A stretch of 64,000 nt of DNA from an uncultured Candidatus Poseidoniales archaeon. Lineage in GTDB: Archaea > Thermoplasmatota > Poseidoniia > Poseidoniales > Thalassarchaeaceae. Shown here in pieces: positions 1,148 through 18,976 of the stretch; positions within the stretch are counted from its first letter, which is position 1, and each line of letters begins with the position of its first letter. The stretch lies in contig CACGIE010000003.1 in assembly GCA_902573015.1 (NCBI GenBank), positions 10,589 to 74,588 of the forward strand, given 5' to 3'. A program made the position numbers and the translations under genes. The notes beneath the pieces are model-generated. The model was not told where the DNA came from. It worked only from the letters and a program-made list of their open reading frames with translations, and did not search any database.

Positions 1148-2650
1148 GTGAAGTTAGGCAGAGGCATCGTCGTAATATTGTTGATGACCTGCTGCTCACA
1201 GGCGGCTTTGGGCCTTTTCGATCAGATTGAGAGTAGGCAGAGTATCGGAGAGCATGTGGCTCACAACAAGGGCCTTGTGGAAAATTTCCCCGATGGAGGG
1301 ACAGATTGCTTCTCACAATCTAATTATTCCAGTGGGATGAGTTTTCCTGAGGTTGACGGTTGTTGGCATTATCGTTCAAGATACATAGTAGGGGAGTTGT
1401 TATGGGTTCCAGCAGGCATTATCGGTGTAGATTATCCTTCGATGAAGATATTTTCTTTACTTGTTGCGCTGACTGAGATTGTACTAATTTTTAGTTTCAT
1501 TTCAAAGTATTTTGGAAGAATCGAGGGTCAAAAAGCAGCCTTGGCCTATTCTACAGTTCCAGCATTCATTTATTATGCGCAGGCTCCCTTTATTGGTCAT
1601 TTTCGAGTGATTGCAGTCCTCCTAATTGCGAGGTTTGCAATTCCTCACTTCTCTAGGGATAGTTCTGAAGAGGAAGAATTAGGGGGAGTCTGGAAATTTG
1701 GTGCTTGGGCTTTAGTAGTAATCGGTCCAGGAATAGATAGTTTGCTGGCATTCGCTTGGGCGGGTTTTGGTTTGTCCTTAATTATCCTCAAAACAAGGGG
1801 TAGAAAGGTATCCATCAATGCCATTTTAGCGTTCTTTTCTTCGCCTGTTTTATGGTTTATTATTAGCAATAAAGTGAATGATATTTTTGGCTATAATAAT
1901 GAGTTATCTGCTAGGTTTGAGGCCAGAACAGACTTCTCGCTTTTCATGGATTCTGACTACTATGTCGCTTTCATAGACTCCTTTACTAACCAAGCCGGAC
2001 CTCTTGGTTTGGTTCTCCTTATTCTGCTATTTTCTGATCTAAAGAGATATTATGATGCTGGACCTGAAGTTTTTTCTGCGGTAGTTTCCCTTAGTTCGAT
2101 GCTATTCTTCACACTATTTGTTTTCCAGAGCACATTTATTGATTGTTGTCCTTATTTCGCGTATCCCGTGGTTGCACTATGTTCATTCGGAATGGCTGGA
2201 TTCAAATTAGATGCGCGCAAAAATGTATTAATTCTCTCGATACTGCTGTTTACCTCATTTTCCAGTGGATTACTACTTCATTCTGTAGAAAATAACTATT
2301 CCGAAAGAGAATTGCAGAGATATGTAATCGACAATATCGATGAAGAAGATGGGATGGTTATTACTGATCATAATATTGCGAGGTGGAACGCATATAGATG
2401 GCAAATCCCAGGAGGCACCATTCATATTTCAGAGGATTATTCGGCTGAAGAATTCAAACAATTGGTAGTATCGGCCCAACCAGAACACATCATACTATCA
2501 AATCAGTCATTTCATAATGTCAATGCGTCGATTCTGGAGAATGAAGGTTATTGCGTTACAGAGATAGAAACCGACGAAAGGATTCCACCCCATTGGATCG
2601 ATGGATGGATGTCAGACGTTTATCCCATAAGGGGAATCTGGAAGTGCTGA
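1148..2650 (+). CDS. Polytopic membrane protein with a C-terminal soluble domain, possibly a GT-C-like glycan-processing enzyme
   Basis: 500-aa ORF with a GTG start. It has about 10 or more hydrophobic helices followed by a ~110-aa hydrophilic tail. It is divergent from the GT-C-like gene and lies in the glycan cluster. Confidence 0.4.
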   Translation: MKLGRGIVVILLMTCCSQAALGLFDQIESRQSIGEHVAHNKGLVENFPDGGTDCFSQSNYSSGMSFPEVDGCWHYRSRYIVGELLWVPAGIIGVDYPSMKIFSLLVALTEIVLIFSFISKYFGRIEGQKAALAYSTVPAFIYYAQAPFIGHFRVIAVLLIARFAIPHFSRDSSEEEELGGVWKFGAWALVVIGPGIDSLLAFAWAGFGLSLIILKTRGRKVSINAILAFFSSPVLWFIISNKVNDIFGYNNELSARFEARTDFSLFMDSDYYVAFIDSFTNQAGPLGLVLLILLFSDLKRYYDAGPEVFSAVVSLSSMLFFTLFVFQSTFIDCCPYFAYPVVALCSFGMAGFKLDARKNVLILSILLFTSFSSGLLLHSVENNYSERELQRYVIDNIDEEDGMVITDHNIARWNAYRWQIPGGTIHISEDYSAEEFKQLVVSAQPEHIILSNQSFHNVNASILENEGYCVTEIETDERIPPHWIDGWMSDVYPIRGIWKC

Positions 2651-2651
2651 A

Positions 2652-3314
2652 ATGGAAACAAAAGAGAGTAGAATAGTTTGGTCGGCATTGATTGGGGCCA
2701 TGTTAGGAATCGGAGTGCTAGATTCTATTTCTTGGGAATCCTGGCCCGATGTAAACCTAGGATTTCAGTTACTTATTGTATCCTGTTCATTATTTCTATA
2801 TTCATTTTCTAGCTACATCGAGACCTACACAGATCTGAGATACGTTGTATACGGAATATCATTTGGTCTTCTATGTGGCCTCCTTTTCCTATCAGGAGAG
2901 CCGATATATGTCTCCATCGTGTTACTTCTTACTTCTATTTCTCTGATATTGAGAAAACATAATTTTGCAGATGAGTTGTCTTCTCTGGCAACCCTGCCCC
3001 TATTTGTGGGCATTCCAATCTCGATTTTGTCAATACTTTCGAAAGAGATAGAAATATTTGAAATTTTGATAGCTGCATCTATACTGATGACCATACTCTG
3101 GATGAAAAGAAAGATTGTAGAAGAAATTCGTAGGATTGTCGGATACATCCCCCTGAGTATTGTATTGGGGGCATGGATTTTTAGAGAGATAAACGGAAAC
3201 TTAGAGCTTGCAGGGGTTGATGCCTTTTTCAATATTTTACTGGTACTTTCTTGCTATGTTGTACTAATTATTGACAAAAAAAGTTTCTTCTCCAGTGAAG
3301 AAGATACCTATTAG
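2652..3314 (+). CDS. Integral membrane protein of unknown function
   Basis: 220-aa ORF starting 2 nt after the upstream stop. It is strongly hydrophobic throughout. Confidence 0.4.
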   Translation: METKESRIVWSALIGAMLGIGVLDSISWESWPDVNLGFQLLIVSCSLFLYSFSSYIETYTDLRYVVYGISFGLLCGLLFLSGEPIYVSIVLLLTSISLILRKHNFADELSSLATLPLFVGIPISILSILSKEIEIFEILIAASILMTILWMKRKIVEEIRRIVGYIPLSIVLGAWIFREINGNLELAGVDAFFNILLVLSCYVVLIIDKKSFFSSEEDTY

Positions 3315-3320
3315 ATTGAA

Positions 3321-4421
3321 TTGAAAGGTGATTGCATGGGCAAATTGGGGTTTGATTTCTCTCTGGAAAGGGAGACTGGGTGGCTCTTCGGTTCTGATGT
3401 TATTGCTATGTTATCCGGCCTTATCGGCCAGGCAATTCTCTTCTGGGCCCTATCGGGAGAGGATTATGGAATGTTTGTTATAGCCATGGATACTTGTTTC
3501 ACTGTACTAGTTCTACTAGATTCTGGATTATCGGCCAGAGTAACAAGAGACGTGGGTGCTTTGGGAGACTTGGGTGGCGTCCTAGTGAAAAGAGTCGTGG
3601 GCATACAACTTTTTTTGGGTGTGATATTTGGGGCGATTACTCTGTTCTTATTGATGAACTACTGGACAATCCCCTGGCAAATTGGTTCAATCCTAATCAT
3701 AACTGGAGTTGCCACTCACGTCATCTCAATGACTCACAGAGGGGCATTGAGAAGTATTGGTCTGGCGAAATATGAAGCAGGATCAAGAATAATCGAAAGG
3801 TTTGGAATGACCTGTGGATATGCAACTTTGGCCTTTTTTGGGGTGCATGAGGCCGAGGAATATGCCTCAGTTGCTGGTGTTTTTTTCCTGATGGGTGGTT
3901 TTTTCTCGATGCATAAATGGTCGAAGAATAAGGCCACTGAAATCGGAACTAATGAGTTGCAATGGAGCATAAAGGATCTAATTGTCCCATCTTTGCCGTT
4001 TGCTGCTGGATTTTTCCTATTAACTTTGAATTTTAGAATACCAAAGCTCCTCCTGGGATATTCGACGGGATTTGAAGAAGTTGGGATATTCAATGTTGCT
4101 ATGATAGGTTTCTCAGCGGCCCTAGCTGTACCCAATGCCATATGGCAAACTGCCCAACCAGCCTTTGGAAAGATGAATAATCAATCGGACAGGGGGGCGA
4201 GGTCTGAAATATTCTCAAGATCAAGAAGAATTGCGAGATTTGGTTTGATTATTGGATTGCCAACGGCATTAATAGCAGGGAAGATTGGATTTCCATTATT
4301 GTTTGTTGACTCGATTCCAGAAGAGGATTTCTCTATATTCGGAATATTCTCCATACTAATGCTTGGGTGGAGCGCTATATTACTTACATCTCCAGATTGG
4401 GGGGGGAGTAATGGGGAGTGA
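3321..4421 (+). CDS. Wzx/MOP-type polysaccharide flippase, N-terminal ~3/4. The ORF is broken at a G8 tract.
   Basis: Multi-TM ORF (an ATG also occurs at 3336) whose helix/loop pattern is typical of polysaccharide biosynthesis (Wzx-like) transporters. The frame ends ...LTSPDWGGSNGE* just after the G8 run at 4399-4406. Confidence 0.5.
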   Translation: MKGDCMGKLGFDFSLERETGWLFGSDVIAMLSGLIGQAILFWALSGEDYGMFVIAMDTCFTVLVLLDSGLSARVTRDVGALGDLGGVLVKRVVGIQLFLGVIFGAITLFLLMNYWTIPWQIGSILIITGVATHVISMTHRGALRSIGLAKYEAGSRIIERFGMTCGYATLAFFGVHEAEEYASVAGVFFLMGGFFSMHKWSKNKATEIGTNELQWSIKDLIVPSLPFAAGFFLLTLNFRIPKLLLGYSTGFEEVGIFNVAMIGFSAALAVPNAIWQTAQPAFGKMNNQSDRGARSEIFSRSRRIARFGLIIGLPTALIAGKIGFPLLFVDSIPEEDFSIFGIFSILMLGWSAILLTSPDWGGSNGE

Positions 4422-4767
4422 GAAGCCTGTAGGTTACTCTTTGTCCATAGGACTATTTGTGCTGATTCAAGTTTTTGGCTTCGTTTATTTTGGGCCAGAT
4501 TACGGAGTGGAAGAGTCTTCAATTTGTTTCTCCATCGGGGCGATGTCATCATCAGCAGTCTACCTGATTTGTACTGCCATTTCGGATGGGCTTCATGAGT
4601 TTTCGATTGGAATTTTGGAGTTCTCAATAGGAATTCTATACGCAATCTTAGCAATATGGAGTATTGTAGGGGGAAATATTGTTAGCATTGTCTCTTGTAT
4701 TGTAATTATGTTTCTGTGGGCTGTTTTGTCAGAAGTAATTAGTAAACCACAAGTCCTTAATTCTTGA
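4363..4767 (+). CDS. Probable C-terminal TM segments of the same flippase, in a different frame
   Basis: 134-aa hydrophobic ORF overlapping the previous one across the G8 tract. A 1-nt indel would join ...SPDWGG to VMGSEKPVGYSLSIGLFVLIQ..., giving a ~480-aa transporter. Confidence 0.45.
   Translation: MGGALYYLHLQIGGGVMGSEKPVGYSLSIGLFVLIQVFGFVYFGPDYGVEESSICFSIGAMSSSAVYLICTAISDGLHEFSIGILEFSIGILYAILAIWSIVGGNIVSIVSCIVIMFLWAVLSEVISKPQVLNS
4399..4406 (+). repeat. G8 homopolymer at a TGG-GGG-GG (Trp-Gly-Gly) site that coincides with the flippase ORF break
   Basis: Read directly: gattGGGGGGGGagta. Confidence 0.9.
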
Positions 4768-4803
4768 TAGATTTGTGATAAATGTAGTAATTTTGGAGTG
4801 AAT

Positions 4804-6759
4804 ATGTGCGGAATTGGTGGTTTCTGGGACCATAACGGACCAAATGATCCTAGGATCATGGAGAACATACTTCGCGAAATGGCAAACTCGCAGAAGCATC
4901 GAGGGCCTGATTCAGAGGGATTTTTCATTAACTCTGAAGAGGGCATAGGTTTCTGCCACAGAAGATTATCAATTATCGATCTATCTGAAACTGGTTCACA
5001 GCCAATGAAATCTAGAGACGGAAGATGGATTGTTGTTTACAATGGGGAGTGGTATAATCATCGGCAGATTAGAGATTCTCTAGGCAATCGAAGATGGAGG
5101 GGGAGTTCGGATACAGAGACCCTAGTGGAATGTCTCTCTTATTTTGGAATAGAAGATACATTGCCAAAAATGAATGGAATGTTTGCATTCTCTGCATGGG
5201 ACAGCGAGAAGAAGGAGCTGCACCTTGTTCGAGATAGGTTCGGAATAAAACCACTGTATTTCGGGCATCAGGATGGTCTGACCGTTTTCTCTTCTGAACT
5301 ATCTGGAATTTTTTCACAAGGTAATTTCAAGATGGAAATTGAACCATCAGCTGTACTTTCTTTCCTCCGACTGAACTATGTCCCTAGCCCTTTGTGCATT
5401 TGCAAAGATATAATCAAACTCCCTCCGGGTTATCATGCTAAAATTGGAAAGAAGGGGGAAGTCGTACAGAGGCAGTGGTACGATCTGACTAAAGAGCTTG
5501 AGAAGTCCGAAATTCTAAGTCTTCGGGGATTTGAAGAAGAAGTCATATGGATGGAGGAGCAAATCGAAAGATCGGTATCTATGAGAATGCTGTCTGATGT
5601 GCCACTGGGCTCTCTTCTTTCTGGAGGAATAGACTCTAGTCTAGTATCCTTATTCATGCAAAAAGGATCAAGTTCTCCGATTAGCACATTTAGCATAGGA
5701 TTCGCCGAGTCAGAATTCGATGAATCACAATATGCAAAAAAAGTATCTGAATTAATTGGCTCTCAGCATAATGAGCTGAATGTGTCCTCTGAAGATGTAA
5801 TGGATTTAATCCCGCATATGCCAGGGATCTTTTCAGAGCCACTTGGAGATTCATCACAGATTCCTACGTACATTGTATCTAGATTGGCCAGAGAGCAAGT
5901 GACTGTCGCACTAGGGGGGGATGGTGGTGACGAGGTTTTTGGAGGATATATGAGATATCCTCAGTCACTTGACGGGAGTCGTATTTTTTCAGGTCCATTT
6001 TCTATTTTCCGTGACCCTTCTGCCACGTTACTTAATACAATACCAGCCTCTCTTTGGGACCTTATTTTGGGTTGGCTTCCAAGAAATTTGAGACCTAGGT
6101 ATCCGGGCGATTGGGTTCATCGGTGGAGTCGAAGAGCGAAACTTCGACATCCTGAAGACAGGCACGCGGATCTTGTTGAGCAATGGATTGAACAAATTGA
6201 AAAGGGCTCGGGAAGGAGTTGGGAGAGATGCGATATTTTAGCTAAATCGGACCCTGGTGAACAATTTGCAGATCTTGATAGATTGCAAATCATCGATATG
6301 AAAACATGGATGGTTGATGATATTCTTGCCAAGGTGGATATTGCTGCGATGGCCTGCGGTCTTGAGGTTCGAGTCCCATTATTGGATCATAATGTAGTAG
6401 AGGGAGCACTATCACTGAGTCCTTCTTCCAGATATTCCCGTAGAACTGGGGGGAAGTGGATTCTGAAAAAGATCCTGTCTAGGCACCTTCCTAATGAGTT
6501 GTTCAATAGGCCCAAGCAGGGATTCGTCTTACCGATAGAGAAATGGATTAGGGGTCCGCTTAAGGAATGGGCAAGATTGACCCTAACTGAAGAAAACTTG
6601 ATTTCTGTTGGGATTACTAACCCCCAGGATTATATCAGGATTCTAGAAATGCACATAGAAGGTCGGGGAGAATATGCAACACCGATTTGGACGCTACTAT
6701 CCCTGCTGTCATGGAAGGAAAAATGGTTACCAAAGTCAAATGTTGATAGCATATATTGA
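4804..6759 (+). CDS. asnB: Asparagine synthase (glutamine-hydrolysing), AsnB family
   Basis: The N-terminal MCGIGG provides the Cys nucleophile directly after Met; the track ORF starts 2 codons upstream at a GTG. The SGGIDSS PP-loop is present. Length is ~650 aa. Confidence 0.9.
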   Translation: MCGIGGFWDHNGPNDPRIMENILREMANSQKHRGPDSEGFFINSEEGIGFCHRRLSIIDLSETGSQPMKSRDGRWIVVYNGEWYNHRQIRDSLGNRRWRGSSDTETLVECLSYFGIEDTLPKMNGMFAFSAWDSEKKELHLVRDRFGIKPLYFGHQDGLTVFSSELSGIFSQGNFKMEIEPSAVLSFLRLNYVPSPLCICKDIIKLPPGYHAKIGKKGEVVQRQWYDLTKELEKSEILSLRGFEEEVIWMEEQIERSVSMRMLSDVPLGSLLSGGIDSSLVSLFMQKGSSSPISTFSIGFAESEFDESQYAKKVSELIGSQHNELNVSSEDVMDLIPHMPGIFSEPLGDSSQIPTYIVSRLAREQVTVALGGDGGDEVFGGYMRYPQSLDGSRIFSGPFSIFRDPSATLLNTIPASLWDLILGWLPRNLRPRYPGDWVHRWSRRAKLRHPEDRHADLVEQWIEQIEKGSGRSWERCDILAKSDPGEQFADLDRLQIIDMKTWMVDDILAKVDIAAMACGLEVRVPLLDHNVVEGALSLSPSSRYSRRTGGKWILKKILSRHLPNELFNRPKQGFVLPIEKWIRGPLKEWARLTLTEENLISVGITNPQDYIRILEMHIEGRGEYATPIWTLLSLLSWKEKWLPKSNVDSIY

Positions 6760-6769
6760 GGTCTAAGTA

Positions 6770-8572
6770 ATGGGCGCAATTTCACTCAGAATTTCTCAGA
6801 TTAGAAGGCTCATCAGTAGAGACCCGAGGGATATTCTGAAATTCTCATTCTTTATGCTTAGGAGAATACCTCAATCAATTATTGACAGGTATGTGATTAG
6901 ATTTGGCCATTCTAACATTAGTATATCTGGACATCCAAAGAAAGTAACTAACGCAAAAAGTCCGATGATTGACTCTGAGGAATTGATTGAATTTGGAAGG
7001 AGAGCGATGAGTGAAAAGAAACTAGATTTATTAGGCAAGGAGATAGGTTTTACATGGCCTCCAAACTGGGAGGGAGGTGAATTGGGAGAATGGCCTAAAG
7101 GCCATAGTCAGGCCATACAATATTACGGAATCGATACGAAAAAGGACATTAAAATAATCTGGGAATTCCATAGGCTTCAATGGCTACCATCAATAGCTGC
7201 TTTGTCTAAAATTAATGAAGATAAAGTACTGGCAAGTGAAATTCTAGATCTCATTATAGATTATGAAGATAAACACATTGTGAATAAAACCGTTGCTTGG
7301 ATGGAGGGAATTGAAGTATCGATGAGGGCAATCTCGATACTAGAGGCTATGTCGTGGCTTGACGAAATAATAGAGGAAGATGAAAGATTTTCTAGAATAT
7401 ACCAATTCCTCTCCAAACATGCGGAATGGATATCGTCTCACTTATCTTTAAAATGGAGATTGAACAATAATCACCTCCTTGTAGAGTTAATCGGACTACT
7501 GGTTTTGAGTGAGAGAATTAGTTGGGATGCAAGGGCTCGGAAATGGAAGGAAAGGTCTCTCAGGATTCTGGAAAATGAGCTTAATGATCAAATAACAAAT
7601 GGAAGGAACTGGGAGCCTACCACATCATATCACAAACTAATTACTGAAGGTCTGTTGATTGTAAATCACCATTGCTTTGATGGAGAGATCGCAGAAAATT
7701 CGATTGGAGACATCACAAACAAGATGGTTAGAACGTTGTCATTACTTTCTGATTCTGAAGGCAATATGCCACTTGTCGGAGACGATGATGGCGGCTCTAT
7801 GCTACCAATTTACGTCGGAAAGGATATCAGAAAAAACTCGGAGATTTTTGAAATTGCCGCACGAATGGGTTTTGATTTGGAAACTCCAGAGTCGGTTTGC
7901 CATTATTGGGAGGGACAGGGGATGGGAGTGATTAGAAGCGAAGATAAACATGTACATTTTGTTTCCGGAGCCCCCCTGGGGAAAGCTCGACAAGGAAGTC
8001 ATAGACACCTGGATATGCTATCATTTACCTTAAGCATGGATGGAAAGCCAATAATATTCGACGGAGGTACAGGGCAATATTTCGGAGATGAAGAAATTAG
8101 AAACCAGTACAGATTGGAGGCTTTTCATTCTGGAATATACTCACGAACCTCACATTGGGCTGTAATAAAGGGACTATTCGAGATACCAAGACCCCCGGTT
8201 GGAAAATTCGAACTATATGGCGAGGATGTGAAAATTAGTTGCGAACATCCGTCGGGCGGGTGGGCTGAAAGAATAATTTCCCTAGAAAAATCTGAAGTCA
8301 GAATTTTAGACAGTTTAGAATTACAGGATCCTTCAGTCGTGTTCATTGTTTCGGAAGCCGGACATGTGGAGGTTTCCAACGGGACATGGTCAATGAAATG
8401 GGATGATTGGGAGATCGTACATGACCCCATTCCTGCAAAATTCATTGGGACTGAAGATATGAAGTCTATTGGATACGGAACATATGACGGGTGCTATAGA
8501 ATAGAATTTTACCATAATCAAGGTGTTAAGTGTACTACAAGAATCATCAATTTGAATGATGAGAAGAGTTAG
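6770..8572 (+). CDS. Heparinase II/III-like family protein
   Basis: 600 aa. NNHLLVEL and GSHRHLDMLSFTL...DGGTGQY motifs are typical of the heparinase II/III-like domain. This family commonly sits next to asnB in surface-polysaccharide clusters. Confidence 0.7.
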   Translation: MGAISLRISQIRRLISRDPRDILKFSFFMLRRIPQSIIDRYVIRFGHSNISISGHPKKVTNAKSPMIDSEELIEFGRRAMSEKKLDLLGKEIGFTWPPNWEGGELGEWPKGHSQAIQYYGIDTKKDIKIIWEFHRLQWLPSIAALSKINEDKVLASEILDLIIDYEDKHIVNKTVAWMEGIEVSMRAISILEAMSWLDEIIEEDERFSRIYQFLSKHAEWISSHLSLKWRLNNNHLLVELIGLLVLSERISWDARARKWKERSLRILENELNDQITNGRNWEPTTSYHKLITEGLLIVNHHCFDGEIAENSIGDITNKMVRTLSLLSDSEGNMPLVGDDDGGSMLPIYVGKDIRKNSEIFEIAARMGFDLETPESVCHYWEGQGMGVIRSEDKHVHFVSGAPLGKARQGSHRHLDMLSFTLSMDGKPIIFDGGTGQYFGDEEIRNQYRLEAFHSGIYSRTSHWAVIKGLFEIPRPPVGKFELYGEDVKISCEHPSGGWAERIISLEKSEVRILDSLELQDPSVVFIVSEAGHVEVSNGTWSMKWDDWEIVHDPIPAKFIGTEDMKSIGYGTYDGCYRIEFYHNQGVKCTTRIINLNDEKS

Positions 8573-9641
8573 AGTTTATCGATTTCAAATAAATTGAGAA
8601 TAGCTCTTTCCTATATCCTTGAACGTCCAATCTCTTTGCTGTTAATTTAGCTTGATTAGAGAGTCTTTCAAGAAGATCCTCGTCCCTCACTAATCGACAA
8701 ATTGCATCGGATATCGCCGTTATATCTCCCGGTTCAACGATCAAGCCATTTCTGTCATGCTCGATTACTTCAGGGATTCCTCCTACTGGCGTGACTATTG
8801 GGACTTGGCCAATTGCCATAGCTTCGATCATTGCCATAGGGAGGCCCTCATCATAAGATGGGAGCAGGAAAATTGATGCTGAGTTTCTAATTAATTGGAA
8901 TTCATTATTAGGTAGCCAGTGCTCAATCCTCGCTAATGTTCCTAGATTCTTCAGATCAACATATCTTTCCAACTTCTCATGCTCACCGTCTCCAGTAGCA
9001 ACGAATCTTACCTTCTCAGAGACATCTTGTGGTAGTTGAGAAAGTGCATCGATAGTGTCATAGCTTCCCTTTCTGACACCTATTCTACCATTTGATGTGA
9101 TTAATATCTTCTCAGATTTATTTTCTTCGAAATTCTGTGAAAGTGCATCGAAATCTACAGGATTCCGCATAACAACTATTCTTTCTGACGAGAGTGAACA
9201 AATGCCTGAGTAGAATTCCTTCCACGATTCTGACAGGACTACTAGAGATGACGCGCGATTGAGAAAAAGTCGAATTATTGCTTTCCTTATTGGGCCAGAC
9301 TCATTCTGATAGAATTTCTTGAATTCAGCACCATGAGAATGTAAAACGACTGGAATCCGAAAAAGAGAAGATAGTACTGCGAATGGTAATTTCCTCCAGG
9401 TACTTCCTCTTGAAGCGAAGTGGATATGTACTAAATCGGGTCTAAAAATAAGTTTCGGAAGGAAACGAATCCATGAAAAGATACCTTGGAATAATTTGAT
9501 TATTTTTCCTGTGTCAGTTGTTGTAGCTAGAAGAGTTACAGAAGCCCCGTCAATCTGATCTCCTACCAGTAACCTCTCCACCGAAGAGACTCCGCCTCTA
9601 ACCCTTAAATCTGGGCCAATCATTACTACTCTTTTTATCAT
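8547..9641 (-). CDS. Glycosyltransferase family 4 (GT-B, retaining)
   Basis: C-terminal EGLPMAMIEAMAIGQVPIVTPVGGIPEVI (E-x7-E region), N-terminal GGV motif, 364 aa. Confidence 0.85.
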   Translation of the reverse strand: MIKRVVMIGPDLRVRGGVSSVERLLVGDQIDGASVTLLATTTDTGKIIKLFQGIFSWIRFLPKLIFRPDLVHIHFASRGSTWRKLPFAVLSSLFRIPVVLHSHGAEFKKFYQNESGPIRKAIIRLFLNRASSLVVLSESWKEFYSGICSLSSERIVVMRNPVDFDALSQNFEENKSEKILITSNGRIGVRKGSYDTIDALSQLPQDVSEKVRFVATGDGEHEKLERYVDLKNLGTLARIEHWLPNNEFQLIRNSASIFLLPSYDEGLPMAMIEAMAIGQVPIVTPVGGIPEVIEHDRNGLIVEPGDITAISDAICRLVRDEDLLERLSNQAKLTAKRLDVQGYRKELFSIYLKSINSNSSHHSN

Positions 9642-10337
9642 CTTTGGCTACATCCTTCCCCAATTTAAAGATGGATCAAGAAGTTCGATATCGTTTGAAT
9701 CTACCCAGAACCTACAAGCTCCGGGTACTTCTCCTGCTAGATAAAAATCCGAATATAAGTCAGCTGGAAGGCCCGCACGAGTAAAGTCATCAGAGTCAAG
9801 ATCGGCTGTCTCTAGAACTGCTGAGAAGTATGTTCCTGAACCAGGAAATTGCTCCAAGAAAAATACTTGAGGTATAGCAATTTCATCGCCCAGCCTCTCA
9901 AAGTATTGGAAATTCTCATTGTCGGACATAGGAAGCATGGAATGTGAGAATAAAACGATATTTGTCTCTCGAGAATGCTCGTACATGAGGCCTACAATTC
10001 CAGCCTCTTCAGTCATCTCCCAGCATTTGTGAGTTTCACTTGGGAGAATCAGAGTTCGGGATGAGTAGTTCACATGAGCAAAGGAGGAAAGAGATCCTGA
10101 AATTATCGATAGGACTGCAAAGAATGTAACGGCCTTCTTCTTATCCCAAAATTCCACGTCAATCTTCTTATTGAGAAGTGATAGCCCAGCCATGAACCAT
10201 ATACAGAACGGAACAATGCTGTATGCCAGAAGTCTAGGAACTAATCTCGCTGCTCCCATTCTCGAGTCAATGAAAAACATCAGAGGTAACATCAGGATAC
10301 ATCCAATTACAATACTCAAATTGGTCGTTCCACTTTT

Positions 10338-10346
10338 CCCCCCCCC
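10338..10346 (-). repeat. G9 homopolymer on the coding strand at ...DIWGG, coinciding with an ORF break
   Basis: Read directly: ttttCCCCCCCCCaaat on the + strand. Confidence 0.9.
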
Positions 10347-10790
10347 AAATATCTCCATCTCTAATTCCAAATTTCCTCTCAACTATTTTGGAAACGAGTA
10401 TGGCAAAAACCAGAGGAGTTAGCAAATGCCAGAACTCAACAATTTCTCCCAATTCTCCTGGAAACTGTCTGATGAAGCTGAACTTTGCCACGGTAAAATT
10501 CCAGTAGATAAAAGAGGAACCTAGAACAAACGCCTGCTTCCTAGCGAGACTTGATCTCTCGACCCTCATAAATGACTCAGTAATTAGAATTGAGCCTAGA
10601 ATCAGAGAGGTCTGAAGATGGCAAGTGGGGATCAGAGCCAGAATTGCATAGCTTCCTAACTTTCCAATATCACTTCTTGGGGACCAGTGAATTACTGTCG
10701 CCGCCATCAAAAGGCTCAGCATTTGAGCAGTGTATTGTAGGGGACTCCACCATGATACCATAAGGAAACAAACAAATGTAAAAGTCGGCA

Positions 10791-10797
10791 CCCCCCC
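10791..10797 (-). repeat. G7 homopolymer on the coding strand at ...NTWGG, coinciding with an ORF break
   Basis: Read directly: ggcaCCCCCCCaag on the + strand. Confidence 0.9.
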
Positions 10798-11347
10798 AAG
10801 TATTCACAAATTCTGAGTCCTTTACAGAATTGGCAACCAGAGAAATCCACAAGCAACTGACGGCAATTCCACAGACGGCTGCAACAAGGGGCGGGGAGCC
10901 AGGAAATATTCTAGAGAATGTATCCAAGATAATCAATGAAAGCATACGAGACAGATAACCCTCTGTGTGGTCATTTCCATACTCTCCGTATCGATCTGCA
11001 ATTTGAACGAACCACCATCCATCTTCGGCAATAGGAGATGGTTCTGCGAATTGTGGACTTAGTATTATTAGAAGAAAAACAAGATTTATCGAAGTCAACC
11101 TTGTAATGGGAGTCAACTTATTCTGAAATCCTGCCATGGTAAGTGTGGCAATTGACGCCCCAATCATAATTGGAATCATGGGCGTCCACATGAATCTAGA
11201 AGCGTAAGGCGACGGAATCGACTCTTTTGGATCATCTGGGGATAGGAAATACAGAATAAAAACAAGGATCGCAAAAATATGTCCCAAAATTACGATTGGA
11301 TCGGTATTACGAATTTTCATTATCGCATCATTAACGCTGAATTTCAA

Positions 11348-14300
11348 CTATTCACCCCTTGTACTAATCCAAACTACCAATACAAAGTTGGCAAATAGGC
11401 CGTAAAGGATAAGCATTATCGGTAACTTATCACCTTTGATGTGAACTAAACTATCTTCTCGGTCTAATATCCCATCTCCGTCCTGATCGAATATGCAATC
11501 CGTCGATGAGGTTGAGGAGTTTTGCAGAGTATAACCTCCTGAGGTACACGGCCTAAATTCGGCAGAGCCGGATGTTGAAACAAATGTGTTTATCGGGGCA
11601 ACTAAGCATGAAGTGGCTCTGTTTTCGGGTTGGTATGTCCCTGGTGCGCACAGTGTTGGAGATGTTGATCCCTCCATTTCCGCAAATGTTCCCGGAATTG
11701 TCCCCCTGCAGTCCGAAGATGATTTTGCCCGGGGTTCGGGAGAAAATGTGCCAACAGGGCATAGACTAGGGGCTGAAGATCCAGCAAACGAGAATTTTCC
11801 TGCTGGAGTTTCGAGACATTCGTCCCCCCTTAGCCATTCTTCCGAGTTCCTATACGTCCCAGCAGGGCACATCTTTTGCTCAGAATTTGCTTCAGACTTG
11901 GCAAAATATCCATTTGAAACAGAAATACAGGATATCGATCCAAAATCGGGTTGATATGTTCCAGGCGGACAAGGTAGGGCGAGGTTTCTAGAATTAGTGG
12001 GAACATAATAACCCGGGTCAGAAGTCAAACATTCGTAAGATCCAGAGTGTGGTTGATAGGTCCCATTGGGGCAAGTTTTTTGTTCTGTGGAACCCATTGA
12101 ATCGACGAAACTTCCAGGATCAGAGAGTATACAAAATGAGGAGGAGTGCGATGGTTGGAAAGTTCCTAAGTCGCATGGCAACTGAGAAATTGTTCCGTTG
12201 TAGGGAGAAAAATATCCCGGATCTGTTTGAATGCAATTAGACATGCCCTGAACTGGCTGATATGACCCTGGTGGGCAAGGAATTTCGGAATTATTGTCCA
12301 TAGATAGATAGTATCCCTGTCTGACAATACGGCACTCATCTATTGAAATTGAAGACCAAATTTCATTGAAAGAACCATTTGGACATGGGGATTGAGATGT
12401 CGAACCCGTGGAATCGACGTAATTTCCGGGAGAGGATGCTAGACATTCTTGTTGTCCCAACAACGGTTGAAAGGTCCCTAAGGGGCAAATCTCCACATTA
12501 TTGTTGGGATTGATGAAAAATCCAGGCATTGATAAGCAATCTGATATGGATTTTGACGCTAAATTGACTGTAGTCGAGTTTCCAGGACACTGTATTTGAA
12601 AACTTGACATCGCAGAATCGACATAATATCCCAACTGAGACTTGATACAGCTTGAGGTCGATGTGTTTGGCTGAAAGAAACCAGGAACGCAAGGTAACTG
12701 CCTTGTTTCTCCAATTCCATTAGTGTAATTTCCAGGCGATGATTCTATGCATAGCGATTGTCCAGATATTGGTTGGAATGAACCTGGTTGACATGATATG
12801 GGAGAAGGGCTGCCAATCGGAGAATAGGTTCCAATCGGAGATTGCTGACAAGTGGCAATAGAAGTTGCGCCGATTACTGGTGAAAATGTGCCCGGAGGAC
12901 ATGGACTCGGTGAGGAAGAGCCCTCATAGTCGATGTAGTGACCGGGGGGAGAAGGTATTTGATTCGGTACACCACCAAGGGAGAAGTACCCAATTGATGT
13001 GTTTTGACAGGATTCTAGGGATGTTGCTGATTCTTGATTCGAATATGTTCCTGGTGGGCAGGGAATCTGCGATGATGCCCCTATTGAATCAACATAAAAT
13101 CCAGGAGTGGCTAATTGGCAACTAAACTGTCCAGGATATGGTTGGAATTCCCCTAGTGGGCAGGGAGAAAATGCAGATCCGCTATTTTCATCGATAAAGT
13201 TCCCCGGGAGTGGGCTCAGGCAGTCACTAATTGAAGTAGAATTAATTGATATTGTAGATGAGTTTTCTGGGCATTCATTCTGAGTGGAAGAGCCATTAGA
13301 ATCTACATAAAATCCTACATCAGAAGACAAGCAAGTAGACTGGCCCCCAAGAGGTTGAAATGTGCCCAATGAGCAATTATGGAAGGAGTCGCTGCCCGAT
13401 AATGAGTAGTTTCCGGGAGGCGTAATTTGGCATTGCAATATTGAAACGGAAGAGGAGTTGTAATTGTAGGTCCCCACTGGACAAGGTTTCTGTGATGATG
13501 CAGCGAAATCATCAACAAAATAACCCGGAGATGAAGGATGGCAATTAGACTGCCCTTCTAATGGCTGGAAAAATCCTCTAGGGCAAGGGAATGTCTGATT
13601 TGAGCCAATGATGTCAACATAATGTCCAGATGGGGAAATTAGGCATATTGATTGAGAAATATTGGGCTGAAAGTATCCAGCCCCACAGGCTATCTGGAAG
13701 GTAGAGTTCTCAGATTCAACGAAAAATCCTGGAGATGAGTCGATGCAATCGGAGCTCGACCAATCTGGTTGAAATTTCCCCGAGGGGCATGGTATCGGTT
13801 CGGAAAAACCCTGAAGAGAGAAGGTCCCTGGTGGACTTTTCTGACAACTATTTATCGAAGAAGAGCCAAAATCTGGGTTATAGGTCCCTGATGGACAAGG
13901 AGTCTCGAAAGAAGATCCATGTCCTGGGACATAATAACCTGGATTGGCCAGAATACAGTTATTTTTTCCGACGAGATTCTGAAATTCCCCAGGAGGGCAT
14001 TCTTTTCCAGAAGTTGCCGAGGCGACGTCGGAATAGTTTCCCTTGCCTGCATTAATGCAACTTCCTTGTCCCGAGGATGGTTGGAAGGTCCCTGGTTGAC
14101 AACTAAACTGGATTGGAGAACCTTCCGGAGTCCAATAGCCCGGGTCGGTAATTTGGCAGTTATCAGCTATCGAGCCACTTTCATTGGAAAATGTTCCAGG
14201 GGGGCATGGTATCGGAGATTCGGCTCCCATGAAATCAACATATGTGCCTGGAGGAGAAACTGTGCATGAAGTCTGTCCGAAGTTCGATTGGAACGTGCCC

Positions 14301-14680
14301 ATCGGGCAATTCTGGAATGAAATTGATTTAAACTCCGGAATGAAGGTTCCAGGAGGAGAGTCTTCGCAATAATGGTAGCCAAATGACCCGGGGGGACATA
14401 TTATCGATCGTTCGTAGTCTCTTGGGAAGTCATCTGCATGATTCAATACCCCATCTTTATCATAATCGAATGATTCCAGCTTAATTCCCCCCATGATAGC
14501 TGATTCAGTTTGCTGAACCCCAATTCTAGAGCAAGATAGTTCGGATGCGTTAACTTCTACGTAGCAATAATCATCCAATCCAATTGCCAAAGTAGGGTAT
14601 ATTGCCGGAATTAATGACGATTTCATCCCCCCCCCAGCAGTCAGATAGTCCGTCCAATTCAAGAATGCAAATTGAACCAA
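11348..14680 (-). CDS. Giant Cys-repeat cell-surface protein. It has GCC2_GCC3/ephrin-receptor-like CPxGT(F/Y)QP modules, Asp-rich Ca-binding-like motifs and a C-terminal TM anchor. It is probably the C-terminal part of a fusion with the upstream RCC1 ORF.
   Basis: By hand count there are ~28 C-x(9-16)-C modules, for example CPPGTYQPDFGSISC, CPLGTFQPLLGQQEC and CQPGSFQPISGQSLC. Each is followed by (S/D)PG(Y/F)(Y/F)V. DYDKDGVLNHADD lies near the N-terminus and DQDGDGILDRED near the C-terminus. The last ~25 aa are hydrophobic (LPIMLILYGLFANFVLVVWI). There is no convincing signal peptide of its own. Confidence 0.75.
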   Translation of the reverse strand: MVQFAFLNWTDYLTAGGGMKSSLIPAIYPTLAIGLDDYCYVEVNASELSCSRIGVQQTESAIMGGIKLESFDYDKDGVLNHADDFPRDYERSIICPPGSFGYHYCEDSPPGTFIPEFKSISFQNCPMGTFQSNFGQTSCTVSPPGTYVDFMGAESPIPCPPGTFSNESGSIADNCQITDPGYWTPEGSPIQFSCQPGTFQPSSGQGSCINAGKGNYSDVASATSGKECPPGEFQNLVGKNNCILANPGYYVPGHGSSFETPCPSGTYNPDFGSSSINSCQKSPPGTFSLQGFSEPIPCPSGKFQPDWSSSDCIDSSPGFFVESENSTFQIACGAGYFQPNISQSICLISPSGHYVDIIGSNQTFPCPRGFFQPLEGQSNCHPSSPGYFVDDFAASSQKPCPVGTYNYNSSSVSILQCQITPPGNYSLSGSDSFHNCSLGTFQPLGGQSTCLSSDVGFYVDSNGSSTQNECPENSSTISINSTSISDCLSPLPGNFIDENSGSAFSPCPLGEFQPYPGQFSCQLATPGFYVDSIGASSQIPCPPGTYSNQESATSLESCQNTSIGYFSLGGVPNQIPSPPGHYIDYEGSSSPSPCPPGTFSPVIGATSIATCQQSPIGTYSPIGSPSPISCQPGSFQPISGQSLCIESSPGNYTNGIGETRQLPCVPGFFQPNTSTSSCIKSQLGYYVDSAMSSFQIQCPGNSTTVNLASKSISDCLSMPGFFINPNNNVEICPLGTFQPLLGQQECLASSPGNYVDSTGSTSQSPCPNGSFNEIWSSISIDECRIVRQGYYLSMDNNSEIPCPPGSYQPVQGMSNCIQTDPGYFSPYNGTISQLPCDLGTFQPSHSSSFCILSDPGSFVDSMGSTEQKTCPNGTYQPHSGSYECLTSDPGYYVPTNSRNLALPCPPGTYQPDFGSISCISVSNGYFAKSEANSEQKMCPAGTYRNSEEWLRGDECLETPAGKFSFAGSSAPSLCPVGTFSPEPRAKSSSDCRGTIPGTFAEMEGSTSPTLCAPGTYQPENRATSCLVAPINTFVSTSGSAEFRPCTSGGYTLQNSSTSSTDCIFDQDGDGILDREDSLVHIKGDKLPIMLILYGLFANFVLVVWISTRGE
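11500..14401 (-). repeat. Degenerate in-frame tandem array of ~30-35 codons per unit that encodes the Cys-pair modules
   Basis: The periodicity is seen at protein level. The DNA copies are diverged, so this is not a CRISPR array or a satellite. Confidence 0.7.
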
Positions 14681-15647
14681 AACCAGAAGAAATTATCCTG
14701 GGATTTGTCAAATTGTGATCTATCTTTACAGGGGATTCCGTTGCTTCGAACCCAAGAGATTCGAGATTGCCCCAGCATTCAAAGTCGCCTGAAAAGGTAA
14801 GAGCGCATGTGTAATATTCTCCAAGTGAAATTGCTAAAATCCTACCGAAAACATGGGTTTCATTCCGCAAGGGTGGGCTATAGTCAATATTCTCCTCAGA
14901 AACTTGGTTATGCGAGTTATCGCCCCAGCATCTAACTGTTCTATCGGATAAAATAGAGCAAGCATGATGTTTCCCGCTCGAAATAGAGATTGCCTTCTCC
15001 GAACGTCCATCAATTATCTTAGTGGGAGGAAGGGGTGGGTTCTGTTGTGAATTGAGCGGATTATCTCCGAAATTCCCCCAGCACCAAACACTCCCTGCTA
15101 GCGTTAAAGCGCATGAGTGAAATTTCCCTGAAGAAGAAGAAATTGCCGCTTCTCCGCCAATACCGATAACAGAAGGAGGGGAGAAAAATTCATTCTCAAT
15201 CTTCCCGGAGCTTTGTCCGAACGAATCCTGACCCCAACAAATCACCAAAGATCTTTCAGAAATCGAGCATGTATGTCGATATCCAGAGCTAAGACTTGCA
15301 AAATTTCCGAATTCCCCTGTTTCGATAGAGAAAAAAGAAATTCCACTACCTTTAGAACCTAGTTGACCATAGAAATTTCCTCCCTTACAGTTAACTGATT
15401 CTTCTTGCGCTATCCAGCAAACGTGATCCTTTCCGACGGAGATTTTTGATCCCTCAAACCCTTCTTGGAAACCTATTGCCTCACTAATGCTCGAGCCTGA
15501 AGCGTCAGAATAGTTTTCGGAATCATCTACAACGAATGAGTTTTTCATTGACGGACTGACTAGATAAGACGACAATATGATCATTACCAGCACCAAGCGC
15601 CGAGAGTGAGAAGACACCTTTGGGCTCATGGTGATTCTTGGGGGCAA
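14571..15647 (-). CDS. Secreted RCC1-repeat (beta-propeller) protein, probably the N-terminal part of the giant surface protein
   Basis: The N-terminal hydrophobic signal is LVLVMIILSSYLV. At least 6 RCC1-like blades are present: CKGGNFYGQLG, CWGQDSFGQSSG, CWGNFGDN, CWGDNSHNQV, CWGNLES and CWGG. Confidence 0.75.
   Translation of the reverse strand: MPPRITMSPKVSSHSRRLVLVMIILSSYLVSPSMKNSFVVDDSENYSDASGSSISEAIGFQEGFEGSKISVGKDHVCWIAQEESVNCKGGNFYGQLGSKGSGISFFSIETGEFGNFASLSSGYRHTCSISERSLVICWGQDSFGQSSGKIENEFFSPPSVIGIGGEAAISSSSGKFHSCALTLAGSVWCWGNFGDNPLNSQQNPPLPPTKIIDGRSEKAISISSGKHHACSILSDRTVRCWGDNSHNQVSEENIDYSPPLRNETHVFGRILAISLGEYYTCALTFSGDFECWGNLESLGFEATESPVKIDHNLTNPRIISSGFGSICILELDGLSDCWGGDEIVINSGNIPYFGNWIG
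14627..14635 (-). repeat. G9 homopolymer on the coding strand at ...DCWGG, lying between the RCC1 ORF and the Cys-repeat ORF
   Basis: Read directly: catCCCCCCCCCagcag on the + strand. Removing one G reads ...LSDCWGGMKSSLIPAIYPTLAIGLDDYCYVEV... continuously. Confidence 0.9.
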
Positions 15648-15738
15648 CGTGTATTAAAAAATCCATTCTCGCACATCCTCGTAGAGTAGTTTACAAAGTA
15701 CTGAAATTTGGATTTGATACAAGGGAAATCGTGATAGC

Positions 15739-17448
15739 ATGAAGAAGACATGGGTTGCAATCATATTTTGCTCACTTGTCCTCTCTGTATTGATTGGAAA
15801 GTATTTCGAAGGAACGGATCCGTTGCCATCGGATTTTAATGATGACAGAAACAAGGAAGTTGTAATATTCTCATCATTCCAAGAGTTCTCTATTGACTCC
15901 GGGGTTGATTTCATGGAGAACGAAATGGATGTCATTCCACCTCTACCTGCAGGTACTAGAATCTTTCAAAGACAAATTGACATCATTGGGGATCCGATAG
16001 ATTCGATGGGAGATAGTGTTTGCATAATTACCGGAGACTTAGGGAGTCTTTGCTGGCAGGGAGACGAAGGAGAATATCAAGTTGAAAGAAGAAGTTCAAA
16101 GCATGTAGAAGGATTGCCAGAGGGAGGTTTCGTTTCCATTGCAACTGGACAGAACCATACATGTGCAATGCATGATTCACTCATTGGTATAAGTTTGGTT
16201 TGCTGGGGCTCAAACTGGTACGGGCAGACTGGCGGGAGTTCGCAAACTAGTACAAACTGGAATGTTCTGCAGGCCGAAAATGGAAATTGGACTTCACTGG
16301 ATGCAGGAAGAATTCACACTTGTGGAGTAAGCGGGGGCGATGTATTTTGTTGGGGGGATGGTTCAAGGGGGCAGATCGGAGATGGGTTTAGTTCGCAATC
16401 CAGTACCCCAATTGAAATCGAAATTGGCGCTGAAGAAATTGTGAAAGTTATCTCAGGCAGTTTTCATAATTGTGCCCTCACAGGGCTAGGAGACGTTTTC
16501 TGTTGGGGATGGAACGGATTTGGGCAGATTGGGGATGGTAGTTTTGATGATGCATTTGTTCCAAGAGAGGTGATCTTTCCTAACGGGGAAATCATTGAAG
16601 ACATAGAGGTAGGGGAATCCCACAATTGTGCAAAAGCAAGGAGTGGCTCGATATTCTGTTGGGGAAACAATCTAGAAAACCAGATCTCGCCAAACAGAAA
16701 TTATTCCTCCTCGATTCCAGTAAAAACATTTCAAAATGTTGCTAGAGATGAGGTTATTTCCTTGGGGGCTAGTAGTTCGTGTGTGATTTTCAGTCATGAT
16801 TACGAATGTCTGGGAGAATTTAGAGATCATCAAATTCCTGATTTGAGTAGAATTACGAGTTTTTCTTCTGGGAGTGGTTTTTTCTGCTACATTCTACATG
16901 GAGAAAATGTAAATTGTAGAGGTACGAATGTTGACTTTGTACCTAGGGAAGCTCTAACTATTTCTCCGCCGACTTCAGTATGGCCCGGGTTAATTTCAGG
17001 AGTTGTGCTCACCGAAGAAAGTTCAAATCATCGAATCATGAGAGTTAACGAAAGTGTTCCACTGGCAAACATTTCATTTGTAGTTCAATTGGGAAGCGAT
17101 ACGGATTTCGATGGATGGTCTGATCTAGAAGAGGAGGAGTGCGACTCAAATAGTGCAGAAAGACTGTCAAAGCCAATTGATACGGATAAGGATGGTGTCT
17201 GCAACCATATCGACAATGATGACGATAATGATGGTTTTTCAGATGATGATGATTCCTTCCCATTGGACGTAAATGAGTGGAAAGACAATGATAAAGACGG
17301 CATAGGGAGTAATAGTGATAGTTTCGAAGTTACTACCCCTGTGGTTGGCGCAATAATTACCGGTTCGATACTCTTGATTATTTTTCTCTTGGAGGCACGA
17401 GAGATTTTTCAACTCTCCAGAACTTTTAATCACGAGGAAGAGGAGTGA
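15739..17448 (+). CDS. RCC1-repeat surface protein with Asp-rich (thrombospondin type-3-like) Ca-binding motifs and a C-terminal TM anchor
   Basis: The signal anchor is WVAIIFCSLVLSVLI. About 7 blades are present, including CWGSNWYGQTGG, CWGDGSRGQIGDG, CWGWNGFGQIGDG and CWGNNLENQ. Asp-rich motifs are DTDFDGWSD, DTDKDGVCNHIDNDDDNDGFSDDDD and DNDKDGIGSNSD. The C-terminal TM segment is VVGAIITGSILLIIFLL. Confidence 0.8.
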   Translation: MKKTWVAIIFCSLVLSVLIGKYFEGTDPLPSDFNDDRNKEVVIFSSFQEFSIDSGVDFMENEMDVIPPLPAGTRIFQRQIDIIGDPIDSMGDSVCIITGDLGSLCWQGDEGEYQVERRSSKHVEGLPEGGFVSIATGQNHTCAMHDSLIGISLVCWGSNWYGQTGGSSQTSTNWNVLQAENGNWTSLDAGRIHTCGVSGGDVFCWGDGSRGQIGDGFSSQSSTPIEIEIGAEEIVKVISGSFHNCALTGLGDVFCWGWNGFGQIGDGSFDDAFVPREVIFPNGEIIEDIEVGESHNCAKARSGSIFCWGNNLENQISPNRNYSSSIPVKTFQNVARDEVISLGASSSCVIFSHDYECLGEFRDHQIPDLSRITSFSSGSGFFCYILHGENVNCRGTNVDFVPREALTISPPTSVWPGLISGVVLTEESSNHRIMRVNESVPLANISFVVQLGSDTDFDGWSDLEEEECDSNSAERLSKPIDTDKDGVCNHIDNDDDNDGFSDDDDSFPLDVNEWKDNDKDGIGSNSDSFEVTTPVVGAIITGSILLIIFLLEAREIFQLSRTFNHEEEE

Positions 17449-18925: not shown

Positions 18926-18976
18926 TAACCAGTCGGAGAGGCAACTCATTATTGAGTCAAACCGTAGTAATGAAGT

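What the first reader, a model, noticed from the sequence alone, without database searches (positions are those of the whole stretch)
4399..14635. Four ORF breaks in envelope genes all sit on G7-G9 runs at Trp-Gly-Gly codons
Each break lies exactly on a coding-strand poly-G encoding W-G-G:
- the flippase at G8 (4399-4406, DWGG);
- the large membrane protein at G7 (10791-10797, TWGG) and at G9 (10338-10346, IWGG);
- the RCC1/Cys-repeat protein at G9 (14627-14635, CWGG).
G/C runs of 7 elsewhere leave their ORFs intact. Examples are asnB at ~5926, pheS at ~26310, the 27343-27795 gene at ~27602, the HMG-CoA synthase at ~43315 and the 45551-46786 gene at ~45835. There are two readings. The breaks could be homopolymer sequencing or assembly errors. 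Or they could be slipped-strand contingency loci switching surface structures on and off, which would be notable in an archaeon.
Basis: seen in the sequence. Interest (0 to 1): 0.6.

Follow-up and report, generated by a model that had tools for sequence, protein, structure and literature searches.

The report
One extra G breaks three envelope genes
Three cell-surface genes of an uncultured marine archaeon are each split by one extra G in a short run of Gs, but only in this one assembly, so this is most likely a sequencing error or a very recent mutation and not an evolved on/off switch.

Summary
The three longest G/C runs in the 64-kb window, plus one 7-run, each sit exactly on an ORF break. 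In all four cases deleting one G restores a full-length gene: a Wzx-type flippase (476 aa), an unclassified membrane protein (565 aa) and an RCC1 + Cys-repeat surface protein (about 1,423 aa).

The organism is a Marine Group IIb archaeon (Thalassarchaeaceae).

The genes lie in a low-GC surface-glycan island that ends at a tRNA-Ala gene.

Independent public assemblies of the same island, at 97–99% nucleotide identity, have every tract exactly one base shorter and every gene intact. At least 16 contigs carry the full-length membrane gene. In those relatives several tracts are interrupted by synonymous changes (GGA, GGT). Orthologues at 69–77% identity encode the same Trp-Gly-Gly with no homopolymer.

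Sequence downstream of the breaks is still under purifying selection. There are no other lesions, and no other homopolymer differs in length.

An evolved contingency locus is therefore not supported, and programmed recoding and old pseudogenes are rejected.

Two readings remain: a homopolymer overcall in this assembly (about 0.5) or very recent real slippage mutations (about 0.35). Only the raw reads can separate them.

The parts
4399..4406 (+). G8 tract (TGG GGG GG) that breaks the flippase gene. Relatives have 7 nt here: GGGGGAG in strain A and GGGGAGG in strain B'.
3336..4767 (+). Wzx-type flippase gene (Pfam Polysacc_synt). It is split into a 361-aa product and a 118-aa product. It is 476 aa and intact in relatives.
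10791..10797 (-). G7 tract on the coding strand and first break in the membrane-protein gene. Strain B' has G6 and strain A has GGGGTG.
10338..10346 (-). G9 tract on the coding strand and second break in the membrane-protein gene. It is G8 and in frame in every other assembly read (L070/L135 (one contig), L133, L134, L136, L137).
9648..11347 (-). Gene for a 565-aa multi-pass membrane protein of unclassified family (no Pfam or NCBIfam match), split into three ORFs. The restored product differs at 1 of 565 residues from P0001 (MDTA01041685.1).
14627..14635 (-). G9 tract on the coding strand that breaks the RCC1/Cys-repeat gene at the boundary between its two domains. Strain A has GGGGAGGG (8 nt).
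11348..15629 (-). Gene for a large surface protein: RCC1 beta-propeller, many Ephrin_rec_like Cys repeats and a C-terminal hydrophobic anchor. It is split into a 352-aa RCC1 part and a 1110-codon repeat part. It is 1423 aa and intact in relatives.
4798..9641 (.). Intact neighbours in the same island: asparagine synthase (4798-6759 +, with an intact G7 at 5914-5920), a heparinase II/III-like protein (6770-8572 +) and a GT4/GT1 glycosyltransferase (8547-9641 -).
1..18925 (.). Low-GC (41-44% against about 50%) surface-glycan island. It ends at tRNA-Ala (18849-18925, -).

Best explanation
The four breaks are single extra G's in incidental G runs. The runs exist only because a conserved Trp-Gly(-Gly) happens to be spelled TGG GGG GG(G) in this lineage. 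The genes are functional in the lineage, and the broken state is private to this one deposited contig. The most likely cause is a homopolymer-length overcall (+1 G) made during sequencing, consensus building or contig merging. This would affect the longest G runs of a low-coverage, strain-variable glycan island. The true tract lengths would then be G7, G6, G8 and G8, and all three genes would be intact.

Shown: the +1 lengths, their privacy to this contig, the intact relatives and the selection on the genes.

Inferred: that the extra base arose in the laboratory or in the software and not in the cell.
For: - Deleting exactly one G at each of the four sites restores the frame.
- Every independent assembly is one base shorter and in frame. 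Strain A (97.2% nt) is represented by L070/L135, L134 and L136. Its 565-aa product is carried on 13 contigs from ENA, NCBI and Logan. Strain B' (99.1-99.3% nt) is represented by L133 and L138.
- The restored membrane protein differs from an existing database protein at 1 of 565 residues.
- dN/dS downstream of the breaks is 0-0.36, like the intact neighbours at 0.14-0.35. There is no nonsynonymous excess on the window's own branch.
- There are no other lesions in the genes. No other homopolymer length differs among more than 60 runs of 6 or more across window 1-51 kb.
- One gene carries two +1 shifts and all four shifts go the same way, as a systematic bias would give.
- None of the window's truncated products is seen on any other contig among 15 billion proteins.
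Against: - The platform is unknown, and most public Marine Group II assemblies are Illumina-based (my knowledge). On Illumina data a consensus +1 at G6-G8 at four sites would be unusual.
- Only G runs are affected. A8 and six A7/T7 runs are correct, as are eight other G7/C7 runs.
- All hits fall in dispensable island genes and none in core genes. Random placement of the G6 and G7 hits would give this with probability of roughly 0.06 (my count). Selection on real mutations explains it naturally.
- Real G8 tracts in Campylobacter mutate predominantly by insertion (PMC3401435), so the +1 direction is not diagnostic of error.
Confidence: 0.5

Rival explanations
1. The frameshifts are real, very recent slipped-strand insertions in this strain, and the loss of function is not programmed. 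Synonymous drift (GGA or GGT to GGG) produced uninterrupted G6-G8 runs. DNA polymerase slippage then added one G. Once one gene of the surface-glycan pathway was off, perhaps favoured by escape from a virus, the linked genes became neutral. Their most mutable sites were then hit next.
For: - Only G runs are hit, and only in the dispensable low-GC island. Core genes with G7 (pheS, HMG-CoA synthase) are intact.
- Two hits in one gene are expected once that gene is already dead.
- The tract-creating substitutions are synonymous third-position changes, so the window's base calls look evolutionary and not noisy.
- Insertion bias at G8 is documented in vivo (PMC3401435).
- The island is mosaic in nature (L137), as expected under virus-driven diversification.
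Against: - It needs four independent events in one lineage within the time of less than 0.5% divergence, with no other sign of relaxed selection.
- No other assembly shows any off-length state, including at least 16 contigs with the conserved G8.
- G6 and G7 are short for high slippage rates.
Confidence: 0.33
2. The tracts are evolved contingency loci. They are hypermutable poly-G runs kept by selection to switch envelope structures on and off reversibly, as in Campylobacter, Neisseria and Haemophilus.
For: - Poly-G runs of 7-9 sit in surface-polysaccharide and surface-protein genes clustered within 10 kb.
- The functional class is the classic one for phase variation (PMC11868660).
- The G8 at 10338 is conserved as a homopolymer in strains A and B'.
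Against: - The tracts are not conserved. Three of the four are interrupted in strain A and one in strain B'. There is no homopolymer at all in orthologues at 69-77% identity, although W-G-G is conserved.
- No length polymorphism is seen among other assemblies, and the hypothetical G7/G9 products are absent from the collection.
- Long G runs are not over-represented.
- The tracts lie 24-75% into the genes. One gene has two tracts that would both have to revert.
- The true lengths of 6-8 are below the Campylobacter mode of 9.
Confidence: 0.1
3. The breaks are programmed recoding. A +1 ribosomal frameshift or transcriptional slippage at UGG-GGG-GG(G) yields full-length protein from the shifted DNA.
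For: All four sites share the same T-GG-GGG-GG context and the same required shift. A P-site tRNA-Gly could re-pair on GGG after a +1 slip (inference).
Against: Recoding sites are conserved among orthologues. Here every orthologue is in frame at the DNA level, and several lack the slippery run.
Confidence: 0.02
4. The three genes are old decaying pseudogenes.
For: Three broken genes lie in one island.
Against: - Purifying selection persists downstream of the breaks.
- There are no stops or other indels.
- The restored product differs at 1 of 565 residues from an intact relative.
- There is no nonsynonymous excess on the window branch.
Confidence: 0.02

Closest known systems
Homopolymer-length errors in assemblies (pyrosequencing, ion-semiconductor or long-read consensus, or contig-merging consensus)
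   Same: - The discrepancy is a single base, confined to homopolymers and biased to the longest runs.
- It is private to one assembly.
- The genes otherwise look functional.
   Different: - A/T runs of 7-8 are unaffected.
- All four errors would be insertions.
- All four fall in one island.
- The platform is unknown.
Poly-G contingency loci of Campylobacter jejuni (capsule, LOS and flagellar glycosylation genes; PMC3401435)
   Same: - Poly-G runs lie inside surface-glycan genes clustered in a variable locus.
- A +1 change from G8 switches the frame.
- An insertion bias at G8 is known there.
   Different: - The tracts here are shorter (true 6-8 against a mode of 9).
- They are not conserved between close strains.
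- They show no length heterogeneity across at least 16 assemblies.
- They are not over-represented.
- Two occur in one gene.
Homopolymeric tracts as general inactivation sites in prokaryotic genes (Orsi et al. 2010, PMC2831843)
   Same: A frameshift at a coding homopolymer gives a truncated product. That survey included 18 archaeal genomes.
   Different: The survey found poly(A)/poly(T) enrichment near 5' ends. It found that poly(C) and poly(G) tracts were not placed closer to 5' ends. The tracts here are poly-G and lie mid-gene.
Loss-of-function mutations in cell-surface genes of genomic islands that confer virus resistance in marine microbes (Prochlorococcus, Avrani et al. 2011; cited from my own knowledge, not checked here)
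   Same: The genes lie in a hypervariable low-GC surface-glycan island of an abundant planktonic microbe and carry inactivating small mutations.
   Different: There is no virus or phenotype data here, and the mutations may not be real.

Membership tests
Simple-sequence contingency locus (phase-variable gene) | A repeat tract within the ORF or promoter whose length change switches expression | tested here: met
   G7-G9 runs lie in the ORFs, and a one-base change shifts the frame.
Simple-sequence contingency locus (phase-variable gene) | Tract-length polymorphism (ON and OFF states) within and between closely related populations | tested here: not met
   All other assemblies have one in-frame length. 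13 contigs carry P0013, with further contigs for P0012 and P0001 and locus L137. Hypothetical G7/G9 products are absent from the collection. Only consensus assemblies were available, not reads.
Simple-sequence contingency locus (phase-variable gene) | The tract is maintained as an uninterrupted repeat across strains | tested here: not met
   Strain A has GGGGGAG, GGGGTG and GGGGAGGG. Strain B' has GGGGAGG. Orthologues at 69-77% identity use TGG GGT GGC. Only the tract at 10338 is conserved as G8.
Simple-sequence contingency locus (phase-variable gene) | Long tracts are over-represented relative to composition | tested here: not met
   There are 5 overlapping G8 matches against 3.4 +/- 2.2 in dinucleotide shuffles.
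Simple-sequence contingency locus (phase-variable gene) | High, reversible switching rate measured in a population | not testable with these tools
   This needs reads or cultures, and the organism is uncultured.
Homopolymer sequencing or assembly error | The difference from independent assemblies is confined to homopolymer length and is private to one assembly | tested here: met
   The four +1 G's are the only uncompensated coding indels against relatives. The truncated products occur on the 76,428-bp contig only.
Homopolymer sequencing or assembly error | The affected genes otherwise look functional | tested here: met
   dN/dS is 0-0.36 downstream of the breaks. There are no other lesions.
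Homopolymer sequencing or assembly error | Errors strike homopolymers regardless of base and of gene function, and scale with length | tested here: inconclusive
   Length scaling is seen: 2 of 2 true G8, 1 of 9 true G7 and 1 of 33 true G6 are hit. However, A8 and six A7/T7 runs are untouched, and all hits lie in the island.
Homopolymer sequencing or assembly error | Reads or the platform show the miscall | not testable with these tools
Programmed ribosomal frameshift or transcriptional-slippage recoding | The shifted arrangement and the slippery site are conserved in orthologues | tested here: not met
   All orthologues are in frame, and several lack the run.
Decaying pseudogene | Relaxed selection and accumulation of further lesions | tested here: not met
   

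The most novel reading that the evidence does not exclude
The extra G's are real, and the G runs act as mutational switches in this uncultured Marine Group IIb archaeon. They would toggle a flippase, a putative glycan-assembly membrane protein and a giant RCC1/Cys-repeat surface protein, for example under virus pressure. That would be a first case of slipped-strand phase variation of envelope genes in planktonic archaea.
Probability: 0.1. Interest if true: 0.65.

Novelty: already known. Interest (0 to 1): 0.2.

Why it matters
If the breaks are artefacts, the practical point is annotation. Three envelope genes of this genome should be read as intact, and the contig should be treated with care at G runs.

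If they are real, they would show homopolymer slippage knocking out surface-glycan genes in a flexible island of an abundant uncultured marine archaeon. That would bear on virus-host dynamics and on whether phase variation exists in archaea. A recent review lists archaeal phase variation as unexplored (PMC11868660).

The comparative data gathered here already rule out the strongest claim, that of evolved and conserved contingency loci.

Tried and rejected
- A scan of one genome per species with the central glycosyltransferase gave only distant bacterial hits of 39% identity or less. The island has no close relative among species representatives, or the source is masked.
- Exact look-ups of several window proteins failed. 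The source record and its platform could therefore not be identified.
- Pattern scans of viral contigs with variable-length gaps for two of the tracts found nothing.
- P0014, a 352-aa member of the membrane-protein cluster, looked like an independent frameshift. It is instead a low-coverage contig where different genes adjoin the 3' part of the gene.
- I tested whether the window is a chimera of strains A and B'. Divergence from A is even along 21 kb, and simple two-strain consensus models do not produce uninterrupted G8 or G9. I dropped this as a general explanation.
- Candidate extra breaks at 23251 and 51929 are separate genes. Relatives have the same gene lengths, and the ORFs are distinct.
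- The window has more G/C runs of 6 or more than strain A in the island (17 against 10), but not in the core (12 against 19, and 15 against 15). There is no general G-run inflation.
- Programmed frameshifting and old pseudogenes are rejected on the grounds given under the rival explanations.
Full report
**1. The observation**

The window is 47.7% G+C. It has 44 G or C runs of 6 or more, and only three of them reach 8 or more: G8 at 4399-4406, C9 at 10338-10346 and C9 at 14627-14635. Each of these, and the C7 at 10791-10797, lies where one ORF ends and the next begins in another frame. On the coding strand all four read T-GG-GGG-GG(G). This follows Asp, Thr, Ile or Cys and encodes Trp-Gly(-Gly).

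Removing one G at each site gives continuous ORFs of 482, 566 and 1433 codons. Adding one G does not.

I edited every homopolymer of 5 or more in the window by plus or minus one base. No further repairable break appeared. The two other candidates, near 23251 and 51929, are separate genes. The eight other G7/C7 runs, one A8 and six A7/T7 runs are in intact ORFs.

The count of long G runs is what dinucleotide shuffles give. The non-random part is that every frameshift sits on a G run.

**2. What the genes are and where they sit**

| Gene | Window position | Evidence |
|---|---|---|
| Polysacc_synt (Wzx-type) flippase | 3336-4767 (+) | |
| 565-aa multi-pass membrane protein with no Pfam or NCBIfam family | 9648-11347 (-) | |
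| Large surface protein: RCC1 propeller, many Ephrin_rec_like Cys repeats, C-terminal anchor | 11348-15629 (-) | |

Between and next to these genes lie an asparagine synthase, a heparinase II/III-like protein and a GT4 glycosyltransferase, followed by a second RCC1 protein and an acyl-CoA-ligase-like protein.

The first 19 kb are 41-44% G+C against about 50% for the rest, and this stretch ends at a tRNA-Ala gene. It is therefore a typical flexible surface-glycan island.

Names attached to cluster-mates of the core genes place the organism in Marine Group IIb (Candidatus Thalassarchaeaceae / Thalassarchaeum). The window's proteins are recorded from a single unannotated NCBI contig of 76,428 bp.

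**3. Related sequences**

A metagenome scan with the central glycosyltransferase found MDSW01086576.1 (L070). It is collinear with window 1-18926 at 97.2% nucleotide identity. Exact-protein look-ups then gave more contigs:

- Further contigs of this strain A: L134 from an ENA assembly and L136 from CEVN01. In all, 13 contigs carry the same 565-aa product.
- Two contigs of a closer strain B' from MDTA01: L133 (99.1%, window 9186-12191) and L138 (99.3%, window 1-9247).

In all of them the three genes are intact at 476, 565 and 1423 aa.

| Tract | Window | Strain A | Strain B' |
|---|---|---|---|
| 4399 | G8 | GGGGGAG | GGGGAGG |
| 10791 | G7 | GGGGTG | G6 |
| 10338 | G9 | G8 | G8 (also G8 in L137) |
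| 14627 | G9 | GGGGAGGG | not covered |

So the window is always exactly one base longer. The relatives' interruptions are synonymous third-position variants (GGA, GGT), apart from AGA (Arg) in strain A's flippase.

Over 9,247 bp the tract at 4399 is the only indel between the window and L138. Over 18.9 kb the only other indels against strain A are a 2-bp intergenic indel, a 9-bp in-frame indel and two compensated +1/-1 pairs.

Across window 19-51 kb, relatives of 91-95% identity show no homopolymer length difference. Two further 1-bp indels against these relatives, at 27982 and 43806, lie between called genes. More than 60 runs of 6 or more have the same length wherever they could be compared.

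Orthologues of the membrane protein at 77% and 69% identity keep the W-G and W-G-G motifs. They encode them as TGG GGC and TGG GGT GGC, with no G/C run of 6 or more anywhere in the gene.

**4. State of the genes**

I restored the frames and compared with strain A. dN/dS upstream and downstream of each break is 0-0.36, the same range as the intact neighbours at 0.14-0.35. The restored membrane protein differs from P0001 at one residue of 565.

Polarising window-versus-B' differences with strain A gives 23 synonymous and 16 nonsynonymous changes on the window branch, and 16 and 18 on the B' branch. In the broken genes the window branch has 6 synonymous and 4 nonsynonymous changes.

There is thus no trace of relaxed selection. 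The shifts are either extremely recent or not real.

**5. Explanations**

*Evolved contingency loci.* These should show tract conservation, length polymorphism among close relatives and tract over-representation. A recent review and the Campylobacter study give typical properties: mutation rates 100-10,000 times basal, and a modal G9. Here:

- The tracts are mostly not conserved.
- No other assembly shows an off-length.
- The predicted G7 and G9 products of strains A and B' are absent from a 15-billion-protein collection.
- The window's downstream fragment P0015 is identical in sequence to strain A's C-terminus, yet it occurs on the window's contig only.
- Long G runs are not enriched.
- One gene carries two tracts.
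- The tracts lie 24-75% into the genes.

I put this reading at about 0.1.

*Programmed recoding.* This is excluded because the orthologues are in frame.

*Old pseudogenes.* These are excluded by section 4.

*The two readings that remain.*

A technical +1 overcall fits several facts. The change is private to one contig, goes the same way at all four sites, hits one gene twice and scales steeply with run length. By true length, 2 of 2 G8 runs, 1 of 9 G7 runs and 1 of 33 G6 runs are affected (my counts).

Real recent slippage fits other facts better. Only G runs are hit (3 of 4 G/C runs of true length 7 or more in the island, against 0 of 5 A/T runs). Only dispensable island genes are hit. The window's substitutions look evolutionary and not noisy. 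G8 tracts in vivo mutate mainly by insertion.

Without reads or the platform I cannot separate these two. I give 0.5 to artefact and about 0.33 to real but non-programmed mutations.

**6. Comparison with known systems, and novelty**

Under either leading reading the phenomenon is of a known kind: a homopolymer miscall, or a homopolymer frameshift in surface genes. Membership of the contingency-locus class fails three tested criteria.

Trp-Gly(-Gly) is conserved in each family checked, and TGG followed by GGG codons is how long G runs arise here. Six other intact runs in the window also start with TGG.

**7. Verdict**

The contingency-locus interpretation is not supported. The breaks are private +1 G discrepancies in otherwise functional genes. 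Interest is low unless reads show that the lengths are real and variable.

Noticed in passing
window 1-18925: A low-GC (41-44% against about 50%) surface-glycan island ends at tRNA-Ala (18849-18925). Close copies at 97-99% identity recur in many ocean metagenome assemblies. The adjoining core genes, by contrast, found relatives at only 91-95% nucleotide identity in the contigs retrieved.
   Followed up: partly
window 9648-11347 (-); P0001-P0011: The 565-aa multi-pass membrane protein has no Pfam or NCBIfam family. Only 11 homologues were found among 5.8 billion clusters. Wherever neighbours were seen, it lies next to a GT4 glycosyltransferase. It may be an undescribed glycan polymerase or transferase of Marine Group II.
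   Followed up: partly
L137 (ERZ840905 NODE_26854) against window 9540-10779: In this low-coverage contig the 3' 1.2 kb of the membrane-protein gene is joined to a different gene set (methyltransferases, a CTP_transf_3 protein and an AP_endonuc_2 protein). This is either a recombination junction inside the gene or an assembly chimera.
   Followed up: partly
window 4407-4415, 10782-10790, 14618-14626: Three of the four tracts are followed within 0-2 codons by an in-frame ATG or GTG of the downstream part (WGG-V-M, WG-V(GTG), WGG-M). The break in the RCC1/Cys-repeat gene falls exactly between its two domains. If the shifts were real, the downstream parts could in principle be re-initiated.
   Followed up: no
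window 16057-16062 and 17336-17341 (gene 15739-17448 +): Against strain A, the second RCC1 gene has two compensated +1/-1 indel pairs within 5 nt. These are equivalent to short clusters of substitutions that change two residues each.
   Followed up: no
window 15057-15065: The window has a 9-bp in-frame insertion relative to strain A, in the RCC1 part of the large surface protein. It adds three residues near 'NFGDNPLNS'.
   Followed up: no
window 6770-8572 (+): A heparinase II/III-like protein (N- and C-terminal Pfam domains, plus a weak match to heparin-sulfate lyase HepC) is encoded inside an archaeal glycan-biosynthesis island next to asnB and a flippase.
   Followed up: no
window 11348-17448: Two divergently oriented RCC1-propeller proteins lie side by side. 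One is fused to about 20 Ephrin_rec_like Cys-rich repeats and a C-terminal anchor. This is an unusual giant surface protein for an archaeon.
   Followed up: no
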